From: Heterodontus francisci
Taxonomy: Eukaryota
Assembly (NCBI RefSeq): GCF_036365525.1
Contig: NC_090378.1
Span: 119,521,593 to 119,585,592, forward strand
Direction: 5' to 3'
DNA: 64,000 nucleotides
The position numbers and the translations under genes were made by a program. The notes under the pieces were generated by a model. It was not told the DNA's origin and searched no databases. It was given only the letters and a program-made list of their open reading frames with translations. Position 1 is the stretch's first letter; each line of letters begins with the position of its first letter. Below, one piece after another: positions 1-22,799 of this stretch.

Positions 1-3000
1 CCAATATTATATATTATATATAACTGTGGGATGTGTCAGTGCGGGAGGTGGGACTGTGTGTCCATTATTATATATTATATATAACTGTGGAACGTGTCAG
101 TGTGGGAGGTGGGACTATGCGTCCATTATTATATATTATATATAACTGTGGAAAGTGTCAGTCGAGGAGGTGGGACTGTGTGTCCATTATTATATATTAT
201 ATATAACTGTGGGATGTGTCAGTGCGGGAGGTGGGACTGTGTGTCCATTATTATATATTATATATAACTGTGGGATGTGTCAGTACAGGAGGTGGGACTG
301 TGTGTCCATTATTATATATTATATATAACTGTCGAACGTGTCAGTCGAGGAGGTGGGACTGTGCGTCCAATATTATATATTATATATAACTGTGGAAAGT
401 GTCAGTCGAGGAGGTGGGACTGTGTGTCCATTATTATATATTATATATAACTGTGGGATGTGTCAGTGCGGGAGGTGGGACTGTGTGTCCATTATTATAT
501 ATTATATATAACTGTGGGATGTGTCAGTACAGGAGGTGGGACTGTGTGTCCATTATTATATATTATATATAACTGTCGAACGTGTCAGTCGAGGAGGTGG
601 GACTGTGCGTCCAATATTATATATTATATATAACTGTGGGATGTGTCAGTGCGGGAGGTGGGACTGTGTGTCCATTATTATATATCATATATAAATGTGG
701 GATGTGTCAGTACAGGAGGTGGGACTGTGTGTCCACTATTATATATTATATATAACTGTGGGATGTGTCAGTGCAGGAGGTGGGACTGTGTGTCCATTAT
801 TATATATTATATATAACTGTGGGATGTGTCAGTCCAGGAGGTGGGACTGTGTGTCCACTATTATATATTATATATAACTGTGGGATGTGTCAGTGCAGGA
901 GGTGGGACTGTGTGTCCATTATTATATATTATATATAACTGTCGGATGTTTCAGTGAGGGAGGTGGGACTGTGTGTCCATTATTATATATTCTAGATAAC
1001 TGTCGGATGTGTCAGTACAGGAGGTGGGACTGTGTGTCCATTATTATATATCATATATAAATGTGGGATGTGTCAGTACAGGAGGTGGGACTGTGTGTCC
1101 ATTATTATATATTATATATAACTGTGGGATGTGTCAGTGCAGGAGGTGGGACTGTGTGTCCATTATTATATATTATATATAACTGTCGGATGTGTCAGTG
1201 CGGGAGGTGGGACTGTGTGTCCATTATTATATATTCTAGATAACTGTCGGATGTGTCAGTACAGGAGGTGGGACTGTGTGTCCAATATTATGTCTTATAT
1301 ATAACTGTGGGATGTGTCAGTGCGGGAGGTGGGACTGTGTGTCCATGAACATATATTATATATAACTGTGGGATGTGTCAGTACAGGACTTGGGCCTGTG
1401 AGCCCATTATTATATATTCTAGATAACAGTGGGATCTGTCAGGACAGGAGGTGGGGCTATGTGTCCAATATTATATATTATATATAACTGTCGGATGTGT
1501 CATAATGGGAGGTGGGACTGTGTTTCCAATATTATATATTATATATAACTGTGGAACGTGTCAGTCGAGGAGGTGGGACTGTGCGTCCATTATTATATAT
1601 TATATGTAACTGTGGGATGTGTCAGTGCGGGAGGTGGGACTGTCTGTCCATTATTATATATTATATATAACTGTGGAACGTGTCAGTCGAGGAGGTGGCA
1701 CGGTGCGTCCATTATTATATATTATATATAACTGTGGGATGTGTCAGTGCAGGAGGTGGGACTGTGTGTCCATTATTATATATTATATATAACTGTGGAA
1801 CGTGTCAGTCGAGGAGGTGGGACTGTGCGTCCATTATTAGATATTATATATAACTGTGGGATGTGTCAGTGCGGGAGGTGGGACTGTGTGTCCATTACTA
1901 TATATTATATATAACTGTGGAACGTGTAAATCAAGGAGGTGGGACTGTGTCTCCATTATTATATATTATATATAACTGTGGAACGTGTCAGTCGAGGAGG
2001 TGGGACTGTGCGTCCCTTATTATATATTATATATAACTGTGGAAAGTGTCAGTCGAGGAGGTGGGACTGTGTGTCCATTATTATATATTATATATAACTG
2101 TGGGATGTGTCAGTGCGGGAGGTGGGACTGTGTGTCCATTATTATATGTTATATATAACTGTGGGATGTGTCAGTACAGGAGGTGGGACTGTGTGTCCAT
2201 TATTATATATTATATATAACTGTGGAACGTGTCAGTCGAGGAGGTGGGACTGTGCGTCCATTATTATATATTATATATAACTGTGGGATGTGTCAGTGCG
2301 GGAGGTGGGACTGTGTGTCCATTATTATGTATCATATATAAATGTGGGATGTGTCAGTGCAGGAGGTGGGACTGTGTGTCCATTATTATATATTATATAT
2401 AACTGTCGGATGTGTCAGTGCGGGAGGTGGGACTGTGTGTCCATTATTATATATTCTAGATAACTGTCGGATGTGTCAGTACAGGAGGTGGGACTGTGTG
2501 TCCAATATTATGTCTTATATATAACTGTGGGATGTGTCAGTACAGGACGTGGGACTGTGAGCCCATTATTATATATTCTAGATAACAGTGGGATCTGTCA
2601 GGACAGGAGGTGGGGCTGTGTGTCCATTATTATATATTATATATAACTGTGGGATGCGTCAGTACAGGAGGTGGGACTGTGTGTCCATTATTATATATTA
2701 TATATAACTGTGGGATGCGTCAGTACAGGAGGTGGGACTGTGTGTCCATTATTATATATTATATATAACTTTGGGATGTGTCAGTGCGGGAGGTGGGACT
2801 GTGTGTCCATTATTATATATTATATATAACTGTGGGATGTGTCAGTACAGGAGGTGGGACTGTGTGTTCATTATGATATATTATATATAACTGTGGGACG
2901 TGTCAGTGCAGGGCTTGGGACTGTGTATCCATTATTATATATTATATATAACTGTGGGATGTGTCAGTACAGGAGGTGGGACAGTGTGTCCATTATTATA

Positions 3001-6000
3001 TATTATATATAACTGTGGGACGTGTCAGTGCAGGGGTTGGGACTGTGTATCCATTATTATGTATTATATATAACTGTGGGATGTGTCAGTACAGGAGGTG
3101 GGACTGTGTGTCCATTATTATATATTATATATAACTGTGGGACGTGTCAGTGCAGGGGTTGGGACTGTGTATCCATTATTATATATTATATATAACTGTG
3201 GGATGTGTCAGTACAGGAGGTGGGACTGTGTATCCATTATTATATATTAGATATAACTGTGGGACGTGTCAGTGCAGGGGTTGGGACTGTGTATCCATTA
3301 TTATATATTATATATAACTGTGGGATGTGTCAGTACAGGAGGTGGGACTGTGTGTTCATTATTATATATTATATATAACTGTGGGCCGTGTCAGTACAGG
3401 AGCTGGGACTGTGTGTCCATTATTATATATTATATATAACTGTGGGACGTGTCAGTGCAGGGGTTGGGACTGTGTATCCATTATTATATATTATATATAA
3501 CTGTGGGATGTGTCAGTACAGGAGGTGGGACTGTGTGTCCATTATTATATATTATATATAACTGTGGGACGTGTCAGTGCAGGGGTTGGGACTGTGTATC
3601 CATTATTATATATTATATATAACTGTGGGATGTGTCAGTACAGGAGGTGGGACTGTGTGTCCATTATTATATATTATATATAACTGTGGGACGTGTCAGT
3701 GCAGGGGTTGGGACTGTGTATCCATTATTATATATTATATATAACTGTGGGATGTGTCAGTGCGGGAGGTGGGACTGTGTGTCCATTATTATATATTATA
3801 TATAACTGTGGGATGTGTCAGTACAGGAGGTGGGACTGTGTGTTCATTATGATATATTATATATAACTGTGGGACGTGTCAGTGCAGGGCTTGGGACTGT
3901 GTATCCATTATTATATATTATATATAACTGTGGGATGTGTCAGTACAGGAGGTGGGACTGTGTGTCCATTATTATATATTATATATAACTGTGGGATGTG
4001 TCAGTGCAGGGGTTGGGACTGTGTGTTCATTATTATATATTATATATAACTGTGGGACGTGTCAGTGCAGGGGTTGGGACTGTGTATCCATTATTATATA
4101 TTATATATAACTGTGGGACGTGTCAGTGCAGGGGTTGGGACTGTGTGTTCATTATTATATATTATATATAACTGTGGGCCGTGTCAGTACAGGAGGTGGG
4201 AATGTGTGTCCATTATTATATATTATATATCACTGTGGGATGCGTCAGTCTCGGAGGTGGGACTGTGCGTCCATTATTATATATTATATATAACTGTGGG
4301 CCGTGTCAGTACAGGAGGTGGGAATGTGTGTCCATTATTATATATTATATATAACTGTGGGCCGTGTCAGTACAGGAGGTGGGACTGTCTGTCCATTATT
4401 ATATATTATATATAACTGTGGGATGCGTCAGTATAGGAGGTGGGACTGTGCGTCCATTATTATATATTATATATAACTGTGGGATGTGTCAGTACAGGAG
4501 CTGGGACTGTGTGTCCATTATTATATATTATATATAACTGTGGGATGCGTCAGTATAGGAGGTGGGACTGTGCGTCCATTATTATATATTATATATAACT
4601 GTGGGCCGTGTCAGTACAGGAGCTGGGACTGTGTGTCCATTATTATATATTATATATAACTGTGGGATGCGTCAGTACAGGAGGTGGGACTGTGTGTTCA
4701 TTATTATATATTATATATAACTGTGGGCCGTGTCAGTACAGGAGGTGGGACTGTGTGTCCATTATTATATATTATATATAACTGTGGGCCGTGTCAGTAC
4801 AGGAGCTGGGACTGTGTGTCCATTATTATATATTATATATAACTGTGGGATGCGTCAGTACAGGAGGTGGGACTGTGTGTTCATTATTATATATTATATA
4901 TAACTGTGGGCCGTGTCAGTACAGGAGCTGGGACTGTGTGTCCATTATTATATATTATATATAACTGTGGGCCGTGTCAGTACAGGAGCTGGGACTGTGT
5001 GTCCATTATTATATATTATATATAACTGTGGGATGCGTCAGTACAGGAGGTGGGACTGTGTGTTCATTATTATATATTATATATAACTGTGGGCCGTGTC
5101 AGTACAGGAGGTGGGACTGTGTATCCATTATTATATATTATATATAACTGTGGGCCGTGTCAGTGCTGGAGGTGGGACTGTGTGTCCATTATTATATATT
5201 ATATATAACTGTGGGCCGTGTCAGTACAGGAGGTGGGACTGTGTGTCCATTATTATATATTGTATATAACTGTGGGCCGTGTCAGTACAGGAGGTGGGAC
5301 TGTGTGTCCATTATTATATATTATATATAACTGTGGGCCGTGTCAGTACAGGAGGTGGGACTGTGTGTCCATTATTATATATTGTATATAACTGTGGGCC
5401 GTGTCAGTACAGGAGGTGGGACTGTGTATCCATTATTATATATTATATATAACTGTGGGATGTGTCAGTACAGGAGGTGGGACTGTGTGTCCATTATTAT
5501 ATATTATATATAACTGTGGGCCGTGTCAGTACAGGAGGTGGGACTGTGTGTCCATTATTATATATTATATATAACTGTGGGCCGTGTCAGTACAGGAGGT
5601 GGGACTGTGTGTCCATTATTATATATTATATATAACTGTGGGCCGTGTCAGTACAGGAGGTGGGACTGTGTGTCCATTATTATATATTATATATAACTGT
5701 GGGCCGTGTCAGTCCAGGAGGTGGGACTGTGTGTCCATTATTATATATTATATATAACTGTGGGCCGTGTCAGTACAGGAGGTGGGACTGTGTGTCCATT
5801 ATTATATATTATATATAACTGTGGGATGCGTCAGTACAGGAGGTGGGACTGTGTGTCCATTATTATATATTATATATAACTGTGGGATGTGTCAGTACAG
5901 GAGGTGGGACTGTGTGTCCATTATTATATATTATATATAACTGTGGGCCGTGTCAGTGCTGGAGGTGGGACTGTGTGTCTATTATTATATATTATATATA

Positions 6001-6222
6001 ACTGTGGGATGTGTCAGTACAGGAGGTGGGACTGTGAGTCCATTATTATATATTATATATAACTGTGGGACGTGTCAGTACAGGAGGTGGGACTGTGTGT
6101 CCATTATTATATATTATATATAACTGTGGGATGTGTCAGTGCAGGAGGTGGGACTGTGTGTCCATTATTATATATTATATATAACTGTGGGATGTGTCAG
6201 GACAGGAGGTGGGACTGTGTGT
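1..6222. repeat. 61-bp minisatellite, about 102 units visible, truncated by window start
   Basis: Unit ATAACTGTGGGATGTGTCAGTACAGGAGGTGGGACTGTGTGTCCATTATTATATATTATAT repeated head-to-tail with point variants. Ends 5 bp from the RSS nonamer. Confidence 0.98.
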
Positions 6223-6227
6223 ATTGA

Positions 6228-6255
6228 GGTTTTTGTAAGGCTCTGTCTCACTGTG
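6228..6255 (-). other. V(D)J recombination signal sequence, 12-bp spacer
   Basis: Minus strand CACAGTG (6255-6249), AGACAGAGCCTT (12 bp), ACAAAAACC (6236-6228). Consensus heptamer and nonamer directly after the V coding end. Confidence 0.98.
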
Positions 6256-6557
6256 GATAGACCAGCTTTTAGCTTGCTGACAGTAATAATCTGCGACATC
6301 CTCATTCTGTACATTACTGATTGTCAGAGTGAATTTGAGGTTCTGTTGACTGCCGGTGAATCGTTCGGATGTTCCTGTGTATCGAGTTGTTGCATAATAG
6401 ATCAGGAGAGTGGGTTTCTGACCGTCTCGCTGCTGATACCAAGCTACATACTTGCTCACGGACTGGCTGGCCGTACAGGTGATCGTTGCGGTCTGTCCCA
6501 GTGTCACTGACAGTGCCGGTGGAGACTGGGTCATGATGATGGTGTCTCCACTGATAC
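6256..6557 (-). CDS. IGKV: Ig light-chain V exon, kappa-type (shark type III/NS4-like), unrearranged
   Basis: Acceptor TATTACCCCTCAG. Translates [101 protein letters not shown], with conserved Cys, WYQQ, LLIY and DYYC. A 12-RSS on V fits kappa polarity. Confidence 0.95.
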
Positions 6558-6743
6558 CTGAGGGGTAATAGAGAAACAGAGTGAAGTAAGAACTGTCACA
6601 GAAAGACCCTGTAAAATGAGATATTATTAGAGACAGTGACCGCTCCTCATGTTTCAGCATTTTCTCTCCAATCACAAGTCAGTAGAATTGGACTGAAACA
6701 AACAGCAGGAAAATATTAACCGTGGAAGGAGAGAGATTTGTAC

Positions 6744-6792
6744 CTGCGACGCAGAATGCCAGAGGCCAGATCAGCTGGATGGGTGAAATCAT
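6744..6792 (-). CDS. IGKV: Ig V leader exon (signal peptide part 1)
   Basis: ATG at 6792, MISPIQLIWPLAFCVA+G, donor G|GTACAA. The phase-1 intron (6558-6743, 186 bp) splices in frame to the V exon. Confidence 0.93.
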
Positions 6793-6852
6793 GGTGCCTG
6801 CTCCTGTCTCTGTGCCTGGTTACTGATAAACTCTCCCTTCACTGGGCTCTGC

Positions 6853-6949
6853 TTTATAAAGCTGCAGCCTGTGAGAGTCTGACTGCCTGTTTCTCAGTAT
6901 GTAAATGGTATCACCCAGAGAAAGGCACGTCAGCAACTCTCACTTCCTC
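6853..6949 (-). promoter_or_regulatory. V-gene promoter: TATA, variant octamer, CRE-like and Ets sites
   Basis: Minus strand TATAAA 6858-6853; ATTTACAT 6906-6899 (1 mismatch to ATTTGCAT); TGACGTG 6932-6926; GAGGAAGTG 6949-6941. Spacing is typical of light-chain promoters. Confidence 0.7.
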
Positions 6950-7600
6950 TTCTCTCTTTCTGTTTCCCTCACTACCTCCCTCCTTCTATTTCTCACCCCC
7001 TCTCTCTCTGCCTCTTTATCTCCTATCTCAATCCCTTTCCCTCTTTTGCCCTCTCCCTCTCACTCACTGTCTCTCTCTCCCCCACCCTCCTGAAATCTTT
7101 CTCACTCCCCTTCCCTCATTCTCCTTGTCTCTCTCTCCATATCTCTTTCTCTCTTTTTCTGCTTCTCCCCATCCCTACCTCTCACTCTTTGTCTCTCTGC
7201 CTGCTCTCTGTCCGCTCTCTCTCCCTCATTCTCTGTCTGTATCTCTCTCTGTCTGTGTCTTTGTCTTTCTGCCTACTCATCTCTCTCTCCCTCACTCTTT
7301 GCCTGTCTCCCCATCTTGTTCTTCCAATCTCACTCTCCCTATTTTGCTCTCTCCTCCTCTCCCTGTCTCCCTGTCTCTGTCTCTCTCCCTCCCCATCTCT
7401 CTATCTCTCTGTCTTTGTTCCTCTGCCTACTCATCTCTCTCCCACCCTCCATTGTTCTGTAATTCTGTAACTGATCTCTAAAACAGGAGTTATTACTGGA
7501 GACTGGAACACTTTGAGGCCTGGTGCAGCAGTTAAATGTCTCCCCCTCTATCTCTCTCTGTCTCACAGCCTCCACCTCACTCTCTCTTTCCCACAGTCTC
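6937..7600. repeat. CT-rich low-complexity polypyrimidine tract
   Basis: About 650 bp dominated by (CT)n, CCCT and CTGT. ORFs here are compositional. Confidence 0.9.
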
Positions 7601-8078: not shown

Positions 8079-8539
8079 CCTCCAATAGGGACCAGTAAAC
8101 ATGGGCCTCCTTCCCACTGGACCTCCAATAGGGACCAGTAAACATGGGCCTCCATCCCACTGGGCATCCAATAGGGACCAGTAAACATGGGCCTCCTTCC
8201 CACTGGGCATCCAATAGGGACCAGTAAACATGGGCCTCCTTCCCACTGGGCATCCAATAGGGACCAGTAAACATGGGCCTCCTTCCCACTGGGCATCCAA
8301 TAGGGACCAGTAAACATGGGCCTCCTTCCTACTGGGCATCCAATAGGGACCAGCAAACATGGGCCTCCTTCCTACTGGGCATCCAATAGGGACCAGTAAA
8401 CATGGGCCTCCATCCCACTGGGCATCCAATAGGGACCAGCAAACATGGGCCTCCTTCCTACTGGGCATCCAATAGGGACCAGCAAACATGGGCCTCCTTC
8501 CTACTGGGCATCCAATAGGGACCAGCAAACATGGGCCTC
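8079..8539. repeat. 43-bp minisatellite, about 10.7 units
   Basis: Unit GGGACCAGTAAACATGGGCCTCCTTCCCACTGGGCATCCAATA. Confidence 0.95.
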
Positions 8540-15887: not shown

Positions 15888-16537
15888 TCCATCCACTGCA
15901 GTCTCCAGCCAGGGCTCCATTCATCCAGTGCAGTCTCCAGCCAGGGCTCCGTTCATCCAGTGCAGTCTCCAGGCCAGGGCTCCATTCATCCAGTGCAGTC
16001 TCCAGCCAAGGCTCCATTCATCCAGTGCAGTCTCCAGCCAGGGTTCCATTCATCCAGTGCAGTCTCCAGCCAAGGCTCCATTCATCCACTGCAGTCTGCA
16101 GCCAGGGCTCCATTCAACCACTGCAGTCTCCAGCCAGGGCTCCATTCATCCAGTGCCGTCTCCAGCCAGGGCTCCATTCATCCAGTGCAGTCTCTAGCCA
16201 GGGCTCCATTCATCCAGTGCAGTCTCCAGCCAGGGTTCCATTCATCCAGTGCAGTCTCCAGCCAAGGCTCCATTCATCCACTGCAGTCTGCAGCCAGGGC
16301 TCCATTCATCCACTGCAGTCTCCAGCCAGGGCTCCATTCATCCAGTGCCGTCTCCAGCCAGGGCTCCATTCATCCAGTGCAGTCTCTAGCCAGGGCTCCA
16401 TTCATCCAGTGCAGTCTCCAGCCAGGGCTCCATTCATCCAGTGCAGTCTCCAGCCAGGGCTCCATTCATCCAGTGCAGGCTCCAGCCAGGGCTCCGTCCA
16501 TCCAGTGCCGTCTCCAGCCAAGGCTCCATTCATCCAT
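15888..16537. repeat. 32-bp minisatellite, about 20 units
   Basis: Unit TCCAGCCAGGGCTCCATTCATCCAGTGCAGTC. Confidence 0.95.
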
Positions 16538-16665: not shown

Positions 16666-17293
16666 CCTGAGCTCCATCCCTCCCTCCATCCAAGCTCCAT
16701 CCCTCCCTCTATCTGATCTCCATCCCTCCATCTATCTGAGCTCCATCCCTCCCTCTATCTGAGCTCCATCCCTCCCTCTGTCTGAGCTCCATCCCTCACT
16801 CTATCTGAGCTTCATCCCTCCCTGTGTCCGAGCTCCATCCCTCCCTCTGTCTGAGCTCCATCCCTCCCTCTATCTGAGCTCCATCCCTCCCTCCATCCGA
16901 GCTCCATCCCTCCCTCTATCTGATCTCCATCCCTCCATCTATCTGAGCTCCATCCCTCCCTCTATCTGAGCTCCATCCCTCCCTCTGTCTGAGCTCCATC
17001 CCTCCCTCTGTCTGAGCTCCATCCCTCCCTCTATCTGAGCTTCATCCCTCCCTGTGTCTGAGCTCCATCCCTCCCTCTGTCTGAGCTCCACCCCTCCCTC
17101 TATCTGATCTCCATCTCTCCATCTATCTGAGCTCCATCCCTCCCTCTATCTGAGCTCCATCCCTCCCTCTGTCTGAGCTCCATCCCTCCCTCTGTCTGAG
17201 CTCCATCCCTCCCTCTATCTGAGCTTCATCCCTCCCTGTGTCTGAGCTCCATCCCTCCCTCTGTCTGAGCTCCATCCCTCCCTCTATTTGAGC
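16666..17293. repeat. 23-bp pyrimidine-rich minisatellite, about 27 units
   Basis: Unit TGAGCTCCATCCCTCCCTCTATC. Confidence 0.95.
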
Positions 17294-18114
17294 TGCTGGG
17301 AGTCAGACCTGAGTTTGTTACATTTAATACCATTCAGAATAATGTCTGCATATTTTAAGTGTAAGTTTGATGAAATAAATTTGAACAGCACCAAAAACAT
17401 TACAAATGGCTACTACATTTGGCAAAGTAGAAACCACAGCATTGTGTCAATGAGCATAGAACTAATGAAAGGGAGAATAAAAACTTTATGAATATGATTA
17501 TCAGAAATGTGTCATTATTATATTTAAAAAGGTCTCCTTGTCAGTAAAGATATATCCTGTTGAGTAATATATGCAGACAGGCTGTGCTAAAGTTGGACAA
17601 TGTTGAGATGTTGATTTCATGTTTTAACAATAAGCAGAATTAAGTTAACAAGATGTGAACAAGATGAGCAGAAATTGTTTACAGATGCTGATGACAGCCT
17701 CTGTGTTCCTCAGAGGGTCCCAGTTGTGTTGTTCACAAACCATGTTTTGCAGCCAGGCTGCTCTTCTTAAAGGCAGGCTGTCCCTTTTAAAGGAAATCTG
17801 AACTGAATAATATTGCTGCAGTTTAAATGATGCCAAACAGAATGCCAGGGGAGGGAGGGGCTTCAAGGATGACAGAGGCATGAACAGTGGAGGTGGGTAG
17901 GAGCAGAGATACCATGGTTCTTCAGGGGGTGGGGGTTGCGGTTAGGATGCATTGGTGGGTGTGTGAGGGTGAGGTGGAGTATTTGACTGTCAGGAGTGAA
18001 TCCTGAGTGCTCGGGATTGTTACTGGGTGAGTGATGGGGGTGTGGTACAATGAGCAGGAGGAGAGGTTGGTGCTGTGCTTGGTGGGAGATGTCCTGTGAA
18101 GATACATTCACTGA

Positions 18115-18345
18115 CCTTGACCACCCTGTGAGGTCACTGAACTTCTCGCGACACTGCTGTCAGGTCCTCAGGTCCAGACTCCAGGAATTGACCTCCCTGG
18201 TCATCGCTCCCATTCTCTTCTGAGAGTTTTGCTTTGAGGGCCTCCTGGCTTCTTGTGCAAACATTGATTCTCTCCTCCTTTGTACCTCCTCTATTAATGT
18301 CTCCAGTGTCACATCGGGAAACTTGGGAGCCCTCTCTCTGCTCTC
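18115..18345 (-). pseudogene. Myb/SANT-like DNA-binding domain remnant (Harbinger accessory-gene type)
   Basis: Manual translation RERAPKFPDVTLETLIEEVQRRRESMF...REVNSWSLDLRT*QQCREKFSDL, with an internal stop. Confidence 0.65.
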
Positions 18346-18349
18346 CAGC

Positions 18350-20453
18350 CTGTGTTTTCAGGTACATCACACTTCACAGTCCAGTCTGTGTACTCAAGTA
18401 GATCACACTTCACAGTCCAGTCTGTGTACTCAGATACATCACACTTCACAATCCAGTCTGTTTACTCAAGTAGATCACACTTCACAGTCCAGTCTGTGTA
18501 CTCAGATACATCACACTTCACAATCCAGTCTGTGTACTCAGGAACATCACACTTCACAATCCAGTCTGTGTACTCAGATACATCACACTTCACAATCCAG
18601 TCTGTGTACTCAGATACATCACACTTCACAATCCAGTCTGTGTACTCAGGAACATCACACTTCACAATCCAGTCTGTGTACTCAGATACATCACACTTCA
18701 CAATCCAGTCTGTGTACTCAAGTAGATCACACTTCACAATCCAGTCTGTGTACTCAAGTAGATCACACTTCACAGTCCAGTCTGTGTACTCAAGTAGATC
18801 ACACTTCACAGTCCAGTCTGTGTACTCAGATACATCACACTTCACAATCCAGTCTGTTTACTCAAGTAGATCACACTTCACAGTCCAGTCTGTGTACTCA
18901 GATACATCACACTTCACAATCCAGTCTGTGTACTCAGGAACATCACACTTCACAATCCAGTCTGTGTACTCAGATACATCACACTTCACAATCCAGTCTG
19001 TGTACTCAGATACATCACACTTCACAATCCAGTCTGTGTACTCAGGAACATCACACTTCACAATCCAGTCTGTGTACTCAGATACATCACACTTCACAAT
19101 CCAGTCTGTGTACTCAAGTAGATCACACTTCACAATCCAGTCTGTGTACTCAGGTACATCACACTTCACAATCCAGTCTGTGTACTCAGATACATCACAC
19201 TTCACAATCCAGTCTGTGTACTCAGATACATCACACTTCACAATCCAGTCTGTGTACTCAGGAACATCACACTTCACAATCCAGTCTGTGTACTCAGATA
19301 CATCACACTTCACAATCCAGTCTGTGTACTCAAGTAGATCACACTTCACAGTCCAGTCTGTGTACTCAGGTACATCACACTTCACAATCCAGTCTGTGTA
19401 CTCAAGTAGATCACACTTCACAATCCAGTCTGTGTACTCAGGTACATCACACTTCACAATCCAGTCTGTGTACTCAGATACATCACACTTCACAATCCAG
19501 TCTGTGTACTCAGATACATCACACTTCACAATCCAGTCTGTGTACTCAACTAGATCACACTTCACAATCCAGTCTGTGTACTCAGGTACATCACACTTCA
19601 CAATCCAGTCTGTGTACTCAGATACATCACACTTCACAATCCAGTCTGTGTACTCAGGAACATCACACTTCACAATCCAATCTGTGTACTCAGGTACATC
19701 ACACTTCACAATCCAGTCTGTGTACTCAGGTACATCACACTTCACAATCCAAACTGTGTCCTCAAGTAGATCACACTTCACAATCCAGTCTGTGTACTCA
19801 GGTACATCACACTTCACAGTCCAGTCTGTGTACTCAGGTACATCACACTTCACAATCCAGTCTGTGTACTCAGGTACATCACACTTCACAATCCAATCTA
19901 TGTACTCAGGAACATCACAATTCACAATCCGGTCTGCATACTCAGGAACATCACACTTCACCATCCAGTCTGTGTACTCAGGTACATCACACTTCACAAT
20001 CCAGTCTGTGTTCTCAGGAACATCACACTTCACAATCCAGTCTGTGTACTCAGGTACATCACACTTCACAGTCCAGTCTGTGTACTCAGGTACATCACAC
20101 TTCACAGTCCAGTCTGTGTACTCAGGTACATCACACTTCACAATCCAGTCTGTGTACTCAGGTACATCACACTTCACAGTCCAGTCTGTGTACTCAGGTA
20201 CATCACACTTCACAGTCCAGTCTGTGTACTCAGGTACATCACACTTCACAGTCCAGTCTGTGTACTCAGGTCCATCACACTTCACAGTCCAGTCTGTGTA
20301 CTCAGGTACATCACACTTCACAGTTGAGTCTGTGTACTCAGGTACATCACACTTCACAATCCAGTCTGTGTACTCAGGTACATCACACTTCACAGTCCAG
20401 TCTGTGTACTCAGGTACATCACACTTCACAATCCAGTCTGTGTACTCAGGTAC
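18350..20453. repeat. 36-bp minisatellite, block 1 (about 58 units)
   Basis: Unit GGTACATCACACTTCACAATCCAGTCTGTGTACTCA with variants. Confidence 0.97.
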
Positions 20454-21832: not shown

Positions 21833-22799
21833 ACTTCACAGTTGAGTCTGTGTACTCAGGTACATCACACTTCACAGTCCAGTCTGTGTACTCAGGTACA
21901 TCACACTTCACAGTCCAGTCTGTGTACTCAGGTACATCACACTTCACAATCCAGTCTGTGTACTCAGATACATCACACTTCACAATCCAGTCTGTGTACT
22001 CAGATACATCACACTTCACAATCCAGTCTGTGTACTCAACTAGATCACACTTCACAATCCAGTCTGTGTACTCAGGTACATCACACTTCACAATCCAGTC
22101 TGTGTACTCAGATACATCACACTTCACAATCCAGTCTGTGTACTCAGGAACATCACACTTCACAATCCAATCTGTGTACTCAGGTACATCACACTTCACA
22201 ATCCAGTCTGTGTACTCAGGTACATCACACGTCACAGTCCAGTCTGTGTACTCAGGTACATCACACTTCACAATCCAAACTGTGTCCTCAAGTAGATCAC
22301 ACTTCACAATCCAGTCTGTGTACTCAGGTACATCACACTTCACAGTCCAGTCTGTGTACTCAGGTACATCACACTTCACAATCCAGTCTGTGTACTCAGG
22401 TACATCACACTTCACAATCCAATCTATGTACTCAGGAACATCACAATTCACAATCCGGTCTGCATACTCAGGAACATCACACTTCACAATCCAGTCTGTG
22501 TACTCAGGTACATCACACTTCACAATCCAGTCTGTGTACTCAGGTACATCACACTTCACAGTCCAGTCTGTGTACTCAGGTACATCACACTTCACAGTCC
22601 AGTCTGTGTACTCAGGTCCATCACACTTCACAGTCCAGTCTGTGTACTCAGGTACATCACACTTCACAGTTGAGTCTGTGTACTCAGGTACATCACACTT
22701 CACAATCCAGTCTGTGTACTCAGGTACATCACACTTCACAGTCCAGTCTGTGTACTCAGGTACATCACACTTCACAATCCAGTCTGTGTACTCAGGTAC
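21833..22799. repeat. 36-bp minisatellite, block 2 (about 27 units)
   Basis: Same unit. Variant order copies the end of block 1. Confidence 0.97.

What the first reader, a model, noticed from the sequence alone, without database searches (positions are those of the whole stretch)
1..6222. Each 61-bp unit reads as a cryptic 23-RSS-like lattice
Seen on the minus strand: unit = CACAGTT + 24 bp + CACAGTC + 23 bp, so two 6/7 heptamers with intact CAC per unit. From CACAGTT, an exact 23-bp spacer leads to ACACAGTCC, a 6/9 match to nonamer ACAAAAACC that lacks the functionally important A-tract. All point the same way as the V 12-RSS. Inference: up to about 100 weak 23-type signals beside a 12-RSS could serve as RAG loading or decoy sites, or as partners for inversional, locus-inactivating joins. 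RAG is also thought to act in the shark germline (pre-joined Ig genes), so nicking could drive array instability.
Basis: partly seen in the sequence, partly recalled or inferred. Interest (0 to 1): 0.7.

Follow-up and report, generated by a model that had tools for sequence, protein, structure and literature searches.

The report
Weak RAG signals in kappa satellite
In this shark a 61-base repeat, 48 kb long at this gene, lies between the V and J pieces of every kappa antibody light-chain gene, and most copies here resemble the signal cut by the antibody-joining enzyme RAG, but the resemblance is likely a by-product of tandem duplication and is predicted to be cut only weakly, since the genes stay intact and V is found joined to J in sequencing contigs that are likely RNA.

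Summary
The geometry is real: 71 of 102 units in the window read CAC-heptamer, 23 bp, then a 6/9 nonamer, all on the strand of the V 12-RSS. The scan found this giant spacer before, on other DNA of this genome. Published RAG screens rate the heptamer as usable, but the consensus nonamer is absent from the top 1000 predicted nonamers, where the true J nonamer ranks 7th. The nonamer forms only across the unit junction, is no better conserved than the spacer, and 69 of 78 indels hit the spacer. No germline RAG footprints: 0 inverted units against 6,057 forward, and 28 of 28 V and J keep their RSS. Best reading: a locally amplified satellite carrying accidental weak cryptic RSS. If RAG mis-cuts it, deletional J-to-array joins are likelier than the proposed V inversions. 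The selected decoy role and germline nicking are unsupported; no cleavage assay or RIC score could be run.

The parts
1..6222 (-). V-proximal 102 units of a 61-bp satellite. The whole array is 794 units, 48.4 kb, and continues 42 kb beyond the window start. About 3.1 kb of other sequence follows, then J (23-RSS, heptamer 51,485 bp from the V heptamer), then the C exon at about +59 kb; all three lie outside the window.
6151..6189 (-). First cryptic 23-RSS-like site: CACAGTT 6189-6183, 23-bp spacer, ACACAGTCC 6159-6151. The nonamer lies in the next unit. 71 such sites in the window.
6228..6255 (-). Perfect 12-RSS of the V (CACAGTG, 12 bp, ACAAAAACC). A 5-bp linker (6227-6223) separates it from the array.
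6256..6557 (-). Ig kappa (type III / NS4-type) V exon, open frame
   Evidence: (splice joint skipping 186 bp)
6744..6792 (-). Leader exon, coding part
   Evidence: sequence; spliced to V in contigs
6853..6858 (-). TATA-like box of the V promoter
   Evidence: sequence; function inferred
6202..6215 (+). CTCF-consensus-like 14-mer (11 of 14) in the first unit, 12 bp past the V nonamer and repeated in each unit; marginal
   Evidence: 268 of 5000 shuffles reach 11 of 14; consensus from PMC6746451

Best explanation
The array is a 61-bp satellite that starts right behind the V signal of all 28 Ig-kappa clusters of this shark and fills the 10 V-J intervals that were read; it likely grew by tandem duplication from a short element that other sharks keep there in one or a few copies, and its 23-RSS look-alike is likely an accidental product of that duplication, predicted to be only a weak RAG substrate. 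Shown: the unit holds CACAGT twice, and head-to-tail repetition places the second copy 30 bp behind the first, where it reads as a 6/9 nonamer; V, J, C and both true RSS are intact; V-J joined, spliced contigs exist. Inferred: B cells join the perfect V 12-RSS to the good J 23-RSS over tens of kilobases and discard the array on the excision circle, so expansion is tolerated. Rare mis-cuts probably occur, more likely as deletional joins of J to the facing CAC motifs (76.6 per kb on that strand, 0.7 on the other) than as V inversions; they would waste one of many clusters in single cells.
For: Position and size; intervals filled by the unit in 10 of 10 clusters read. Origin: a contig from organism C aligns through V, RSS and about 50 bp of one unit, then leaves into sequence like the tail behind these arrays, with no nonamer 23 bp after its CACAGTT; runs X13 and X14 show low-depth tandem copies; X9 shows a high-depth array. 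Weak signal: ACACAGTCC is not in the top-1000 nonamer table, while the J nonamer is rank 7 and the V nonamer rank 1. No selection on the signal as a whole: nonamer identity 0.954 against spacer 0.959, and the 7+9 mask ranks 10 of 61 rotations; 69 of 78 indel events fall in the 23-bp spacer. No germline RAG footprints: 0 reversed against 6,057 forward units, no 28-33 or 89-94 bp periods; the three distinct insertions lie away from the CAC border; 28 of 28 V open with leader and RSS, 28 of 28 J with RSS. Rearrangement works: loose ends at the V 3' end are J sequence in all 4 runs laid, and cDNA-type protein P0004 is V-J-C joined. General repeat growth here: a neighbouring 36-bp array has 745 copies in the next cluster against 59+27 in this one.
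Against: The CAC of CACAGTT is the best-conserved triplet of the unit (rank 1 of 61 averaged over 10 arrays, 0.987 against 0.986 for the next; per-array ranks 2-35; the arrays are related). The shuffle null gives only 0.4-1.9%. The heptamer is functional-grade and at least 279 sites have top-1000 nonamers, 223 of them in the longest array. The element is retained behind the V nonamer in other sharks, so the single copy may do something. All RSS-strength data come from mammalian RAG in other spacer contexts. The runs are only guessed to be RNA, come from one sample, and contigs drop rare joins.
Confidence: 0.68

Rival explanations
1. The array is kept as a RAG loading, decoy or kill lattice: hundreds of weak 23-type signals bind RAG near V or capture the V 12-RSS by inversion, throttling or inactivating kappa clusters.
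For: Exact 23-bp geometry in 462 of 794 units; usable heptamer; heptamer CAC is the best-conserved triplet; one-step variants are top-ranked nonamers; gamma-satellite precedent.
Against: Nonamer arises only across the junction and differs in relatives; nonamer not conserved above spacer, indels concentrate in the spacer; strong variants have not swept (none of the five top-1000 variants checked occurs in the window; 15 sites in this array, 14 with a degraded heptamer); no germline inversions; 28 of 28 genes intact.
Confidence: 0.08
2. Length, not sequence, is what matters: the array acts as a distance or chromatin barrier that lowers kappa rearrangement, sets cluster usage and blocks germline joining, and is maintained for that.
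For: V-J spans 7.5-217 kb while three other split light-chain clusters of this genome span 0.3-0.4 kb; a review states that kappa dominates in nurse shark but sigma-2 in horn shark; 0 of 28 kappa genes are germline-joined here whereas nurse shark has joined ones.
Against: Lengths vary 29-fold with all V open; kappa contigs are abundant in two runs (not a measure of expression); an effect on usage need not mean selection; no usage-versus-length data obtained.
Confidence: 0.16
3. The unit is an amplified protein-binding site, such as an RSS-associated CTCF site, and the array alters loop extrusion between J and V.
For: 11 of 14 match to the CTCF consensus 12 bp past the nonamer; mouse VH genes carry such sites 17-19 bp past the nonamer; element retained in other sharks.
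Against: 5.4% of shuffles match as well; two of the three misses are invariant C positions of the consensus and the third is a pyrimidine position; only 450 of 6,158 units reach 12 or more; no binding data.
Confidence: 0.05
4. The array lengths, or some clusters, are assembly artefacts.
For: Four cluster pairs are identical over 728 bp and one pair has identical V-J length; repeat lengths are hard to assemble.
Against: No N in the stretches read; 1,753 distinct 61-bp variants with cluster-specific patterns and nested insertions; a high-depth array also in another organism's run.
Confidence: 0.03

Closest known systems
Cryptic 23-RSS in mouse gamma (major) satellite (Cowell et al. 2003, PMC2193808; outline and section 19 read)
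   Same: Tandem repeat whose unit holds CAC heptamer-like motifs scored as 23-cRSS; weak but, in mouse, detectable RAG cleavage.
   Different: That repeat is an abundant genome-wide satellite; this one lies inside an Ig gene between V and J, appears confined to the kappa clusters, and has its CACs on one strand, facing J. Cleavage is untested here.
Shark Ig kappa (type III / NS4) V-J-C clusters (Lee et al. 2000, PMC2193156; passages read)
   Same: One V with 12-RSS, one J with 23-RSS, one C, same orientation, many clusters; C 85% identical to the nurse shark chain and 100% to proteins labelled Heterodontus francisci kappa.
   Different: V-J is 502-524 bp in nurse shark, 7.5-217 kb here; nurse shark has germline-joined copies, here 0 of 28.
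Convergent cryptic-RSS use during RAG scanning at mouse Igh and Igk (PMC11153149, PMC13190342; passages read)
   Same: A J-based RAG centre would meet CAC motifs in convergent orientation on its way to a strong V-kappa RSS.
   Different: Here CAC density on the convergent strand is 3-4 times background and near zero on the other strand; whether sharks scan at all is unknown.

Membership tests
Functional 23-RSS | Heptamer with intact CAC and permissive sequence | tested here: met
   614 CACAGTT in 794 units; CACAGTTAT 0.067 against 0.096-0.097 for the true heptamers in SARP-seq, 12-RSS context
Functional 23-RSS | Spacer of 23 bp | tested here: met
   462 sites at 23, 3 at 22, 0 at 24; but 69 of 78 indels fall in it
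Functional 23-RSS | Nonamer of functional grade | tested here: not met
   ACACAGTCC absent from the top-1000 table and fails purine at position 4; a minority of variants pass
Functional 23-RSS | Flanks a coding gene segment | tested here: not met
   Flanked only by repeat units
Functional 23-RSS | RIC score above threshold | not testable with these tools
   No RIC model parameters available
Active cryptic RSS | RAG cleavage or junctions at the heptamer border | tested here: inconclusive
   No germline footprints; no strand-change joint among the 15 of 20 joints shown in contigs, which drop rare variants; no assay possible
Cartilaginous-fish Ig kappa cluster | Single V(12-RSS)-J(23-RSS)-C, same orientation, kappa-type sequence | tested here: met
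Cartilaginous-fish Ig kappa cluster | V and J 250-500 bp apart | tested here: not met
   51,485 bp here; 7.5-217 kb in 28 of 28; norm from PMC5192425 and PMC2193156
Cartilaginous-fish Ig kappa cluster | Rearrangement confined to the cluster | tested here: inconclusive
   Loose ends at the V end typical of this subgroup carry a J of its own type, but J types are shared between clusters and consensus agreement is 0.57
Tandem satellite / VNTR | Head-to-tail copies with variable number and spreading variants | tested here: met
RSS-associated CTCF site | Consensus match 17-19 bp past the nonamer | tested here: inconclusive
   11 of 14 at 12 bp, reached by 5.4% of shuffles
RSS-associated CTCF site | CTCF binding | not testable with these tools
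   needs EMSA or ChIP

The most novel reading that the evidence does not exclude
The satellite is a built-in RAG sink: thousands of heptamer-like CACs, all facing J, plus a minority of near-functional 23-signals, make each kappa cluster fail in proportion to array length. Repeat length would then set cluster usage and light-chain isotype balance, and junction maps along the array would be the first direct read-out of RAG scanning in a cartilaginous fish.
Probability: 0.12. Interest if true: 0.85.

Novelty: new variant of a known kind. Interest (0 to 1): 0.55.

Why it matters
Shark Ig clusters are described as keeping V and J a few hundred bases apart, without long-distance recombination (PMC2435157, PMC5192425). 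Here V must reach J across up to 217 kb of one-stranded CAC-rich satellite, and 6 of 26 deletional inter-cluster V-J distances are no longer than the longest intra-cluster one. The locus is thus a natural test of what confines shark rearrangement to a cluster, and of scanning versus diffusion by RAG in early vertebrates: the array would record scanning as junctions at its CACs. The cryptic-RSS lattice itself is probably incidental.

Tried and rejected
A consensus J-RSS pattern search found 0 matches genome-wide; the kappa J heptamer and nonamer are non-consensus, and J was then found by reading the DNA. Apparent 'reverse units' from an AT-rich probe were false hits of the near-symmetric AT run; a GC-core probe gave 0. 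12-type cryptic signals: none at the thresholds used. No RNA holder was on record as RNA; four runs guessed to be RNA were laid. Absence of V-to-array strand-change joints there is not counted as evidence, since contigs drop rare variants and 5 joints were not shown. Depth ratios of unit against intron in those runs are not used as copy numbers. A shark RSS weight matrix was not built: only about ten true RSS were recovered from 20 other V loci. Two reviews sought by DOI were not held; PMC2192082 gave no matching passage; the original description of horn shark type III genes was not seen. Searches for prior reports of the long spacer or its repeat found none, but cover open-access papers only. 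Derivation of the unit from the true RSS: no resemblance beyond CACAGT by inspection. The relatives look-up of earlier notes was empty.
Full report
Observation. The array at 1-6222 is 102 head-to-tail units of 61 bp. On the minus strand the unit is CACAGTT, 24 bp, CACAGTC, 23 bp, as stated. It starts 5 bp behind the nonamer of a perfect 12-RSS at 6255 that flanks an open Ig V exon. With intact CAC, at most one heptamer and three nonamer mismatches, 71 of 102 units score at spacer 23, one at spacer 11, none at 12, 13, 22 or 24, and none on the other strand. Background in 102 kb of flanks lacking this unit was 1 and 4 such 23-sites per strand. Of 20,000 dinucleotide shuffles of the unit, 0.36% reach it at 23 bp and 1.9% with relaxed spacers. 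The thresholds were fitted after the fact, and the nonamer match is the second CACAGTC with its two neighbours.

What the array is. Reading beyond the window start shows 794 units (48.4 kb), then 3.1 kb of other sequence, a J with a 23-RSS facing V (heptamer CACACTG, nonamer ACAATATCC) 51,485 bp from the V heptamer, and a C exon at about +59 kb. The C domain is 100% identical to proteins labelled Heterodontus francisci kappa light chain and 85% to the nurse shark chain, so this is likely a horn shark kappa (type III/NS4) cluster. The genome holds 28 such V, 28 J and 28 C on one contig. All 28 V are followed at once by the array, and V-J spans 7.5 to 217 kb, median 49 kb. I read 10 of the 28 intervals (8 whole, one lacking 1.4 kb, one lacking 20 kb); each is filled with the unit apart from a 3-5.5 kb tail and three distinct insertions. 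Four pairs are identical over 728 bp, so independent clusters are fewer than 28. An exact 48-mer of the unit occurs 4,346 times in the genome, against 4,400-7,100 expected from these intervals alone; this fits confinement to the locus but is an estimate, as only 100 places were listed. None of 20 other V loci carried the unit, and three split light-chain clusters among them had V-J of 0.3-0.4 kb. Nurse shark NS4 has 502-524 bp (PMC2193156, passages); a review gives 250-500 bp as the rule (PMC5192425, passages). The scan had noted this spacer from another cluster; my counts were obtained before that look-up.

Origin. Contigs from four runs of other organisms were laid on V plus one unit. One contig of organism C aligns through V, RSS and about 50 bp of the unit, then continues into sequence resembling the tail that follows these arrays. 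Taking its loose end as adjacent, there is no nonamer 23 bp after CACAGTT (4 of 9 by my count), and the CACAGTC copy reads CACAGCA. X13 and X14 show tandem joints at low depth, and X9 shows the unit at about 100 times the depth of V. Organisms are coded and contigs are short, so this is a sketch: an old element behind the V nonamer, amplified in this lineage. The cryptic signal spans the unit junction and so cannot predate tandem duplication (inference).

How strong is the signal. No RIC model was available, so I used published mammalian screens. In SARP-seq (PMC9723617, passages and supplement rows) mean frequencies were 0.067 for CACAGTTAT, 0.096 for the true V heptamer+2, 0.097 for the true J heptamer+2, 0.012 for CACAGTCCC and 1.14 for CACAGTGAT. 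The first heptamer is therefore usable. In the top-1000 predicted nonamers of PMC12711392 (abstract, part 1 of 3 of Results, section 25, Table S2 look-ups) the V nonamer is first, the J nonamer seventh, and ACACAGTCC is absent. Five variants seen in the arrays are listed (ranks 2, 25, 95, 359, 405); three other variants queried are not. Those five occur at 279 CAC sites among about 6,000 units, 223 in the longest array, 15 in this array and none in the window. This is a lower bound. Transfer to shark RAG is inference.

Selection and footprints. Across 5,705 full-length units, identity to consensus was 0.969 for the heptamer, 0.954 for the nonamer, 0.959 for the spacer and 0.930 elsewhere; the 7+9 mask ranked 10 of 61 rotations; 69 of 78 indel events lay in the spacer, which is AT-rich and slip-prone. 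Against my reading, the heptamer's CAC was the best-conserved triplet in two parsings, by a margin of 0.001 in the less biased one, with per-array ranks from 2 to 35; this is a weak hint on related arrays. Germline RAG action would leave inverted blocks, 30/31-bp-offset deletions, or fused V or J. I found 0 reversed against 6,057 forward units, no such periods, insertions away from the CAC border, and all 28 V open with leader and 12-RSS and all 28 J with 23-RSS. In-register events would be invisible. Mirror-image cluster pairs differ by only 1-7 units, if they are true paralogues.

Rearrangement. In four runs guessed to be RNA (one sample), contigs show leader-V splicing and J sequence as loose ends at the V 3' end; at position 6256, the end typical of this V subgroup (V-J 46-103 kb), the J is of the subgroup's own type, with low consensus agreement. 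A deposited joined protein matches this V among the four best (91 of 97 residues). So V reaches J despite hundreds of nearer look-alikes.

Mechanism. Most likely the strong V and J signals pair over distance, the array leaves on the excision circle, and expansion costs little; neighbouring minisatellites also vary widely between clusters. Orientation matters: CAC density is 76.6 per kb on the strand facing J and 0.7 on the other, against 18-24 in flanks. In mouse, scanning RAG uses cryptic sites as simple as CAC overwhelmingly in convergent orientation (PMC11153149, PMC13190342, passages). If sharks scan from J, deletional J-to-array joins, not V inversions, are the expected error. This is untested.

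Novelty. Cryptic RSS in satellite DNA is known (PMC2193808, section 19). A satellite that widens shark V-J intervals a hundredfold was not found in seven searches of open-access papers; older papers on type III genes were not seen. It departs from the described short-range cluster model (PMC2435157, passages). For 5 of 28 V a foreign J is nearer than their own. Verdict: observation confirmed, functional lattice unsupported, locus architecture unusual and experimentally useful.

Noticed in passing
window 6202-6215 (+) and every unit: CTCF-consensus-like 14-mer, 11 of 14, 12 bp past the V nonamer, antisense to V; marginal against shuffles.
   Followed up: partly
window 8081-8539, 15890-16536, 16667-17294, 18344-20453, 21833-22799: Minisatellites of 43, 32, 23 and 36 bp upstream of V recur in the next cluster with very different copy numbers, e.g. 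the 36-mer 745 copies, the 32-mer 205.
   Followed up: partly
G000:C8:119.17-119.53 Mb (-) and 122.82-123.18 Mb (+): Three clusters form a mirror-image duplicate with V regions identical over 728 bp and V-J lengths differing by 1-7 units; recent inverted duplication or assembly duplication.
   Followed up: partly
L045-L072 (J loci): The kappa J 23-RSS has a non-consensus heptamer CACACTG in 27 of 28; one (L067) reads CATACTG and has lost the CAC, so that cluster may not rearrange.
   Followed up: no
L074 (G000:C23:55947400-55950450): A split light-chain-like V and J about 0.3 kb apart, J with a 12-bp-spacer RSS, near germline-joined lambda-like genes; a review says lambda genes are all joined.
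   Followed up: no
L114-L122 and L107-L109: Insertions inside arrays (469-bp gap repeated three times, one of 2.9 kb, one of 0.36 kb) that look like retrotransposon fragments and sit in or next to the AT-rich run.
   Followed up: partly
array of this gene, 7-37 kb from V (outside window): 14 units carry a near-consensus nonamer ACAAAATCC at 23 bp but with a degraded heptamer CACATTT.
   Followed up: partly
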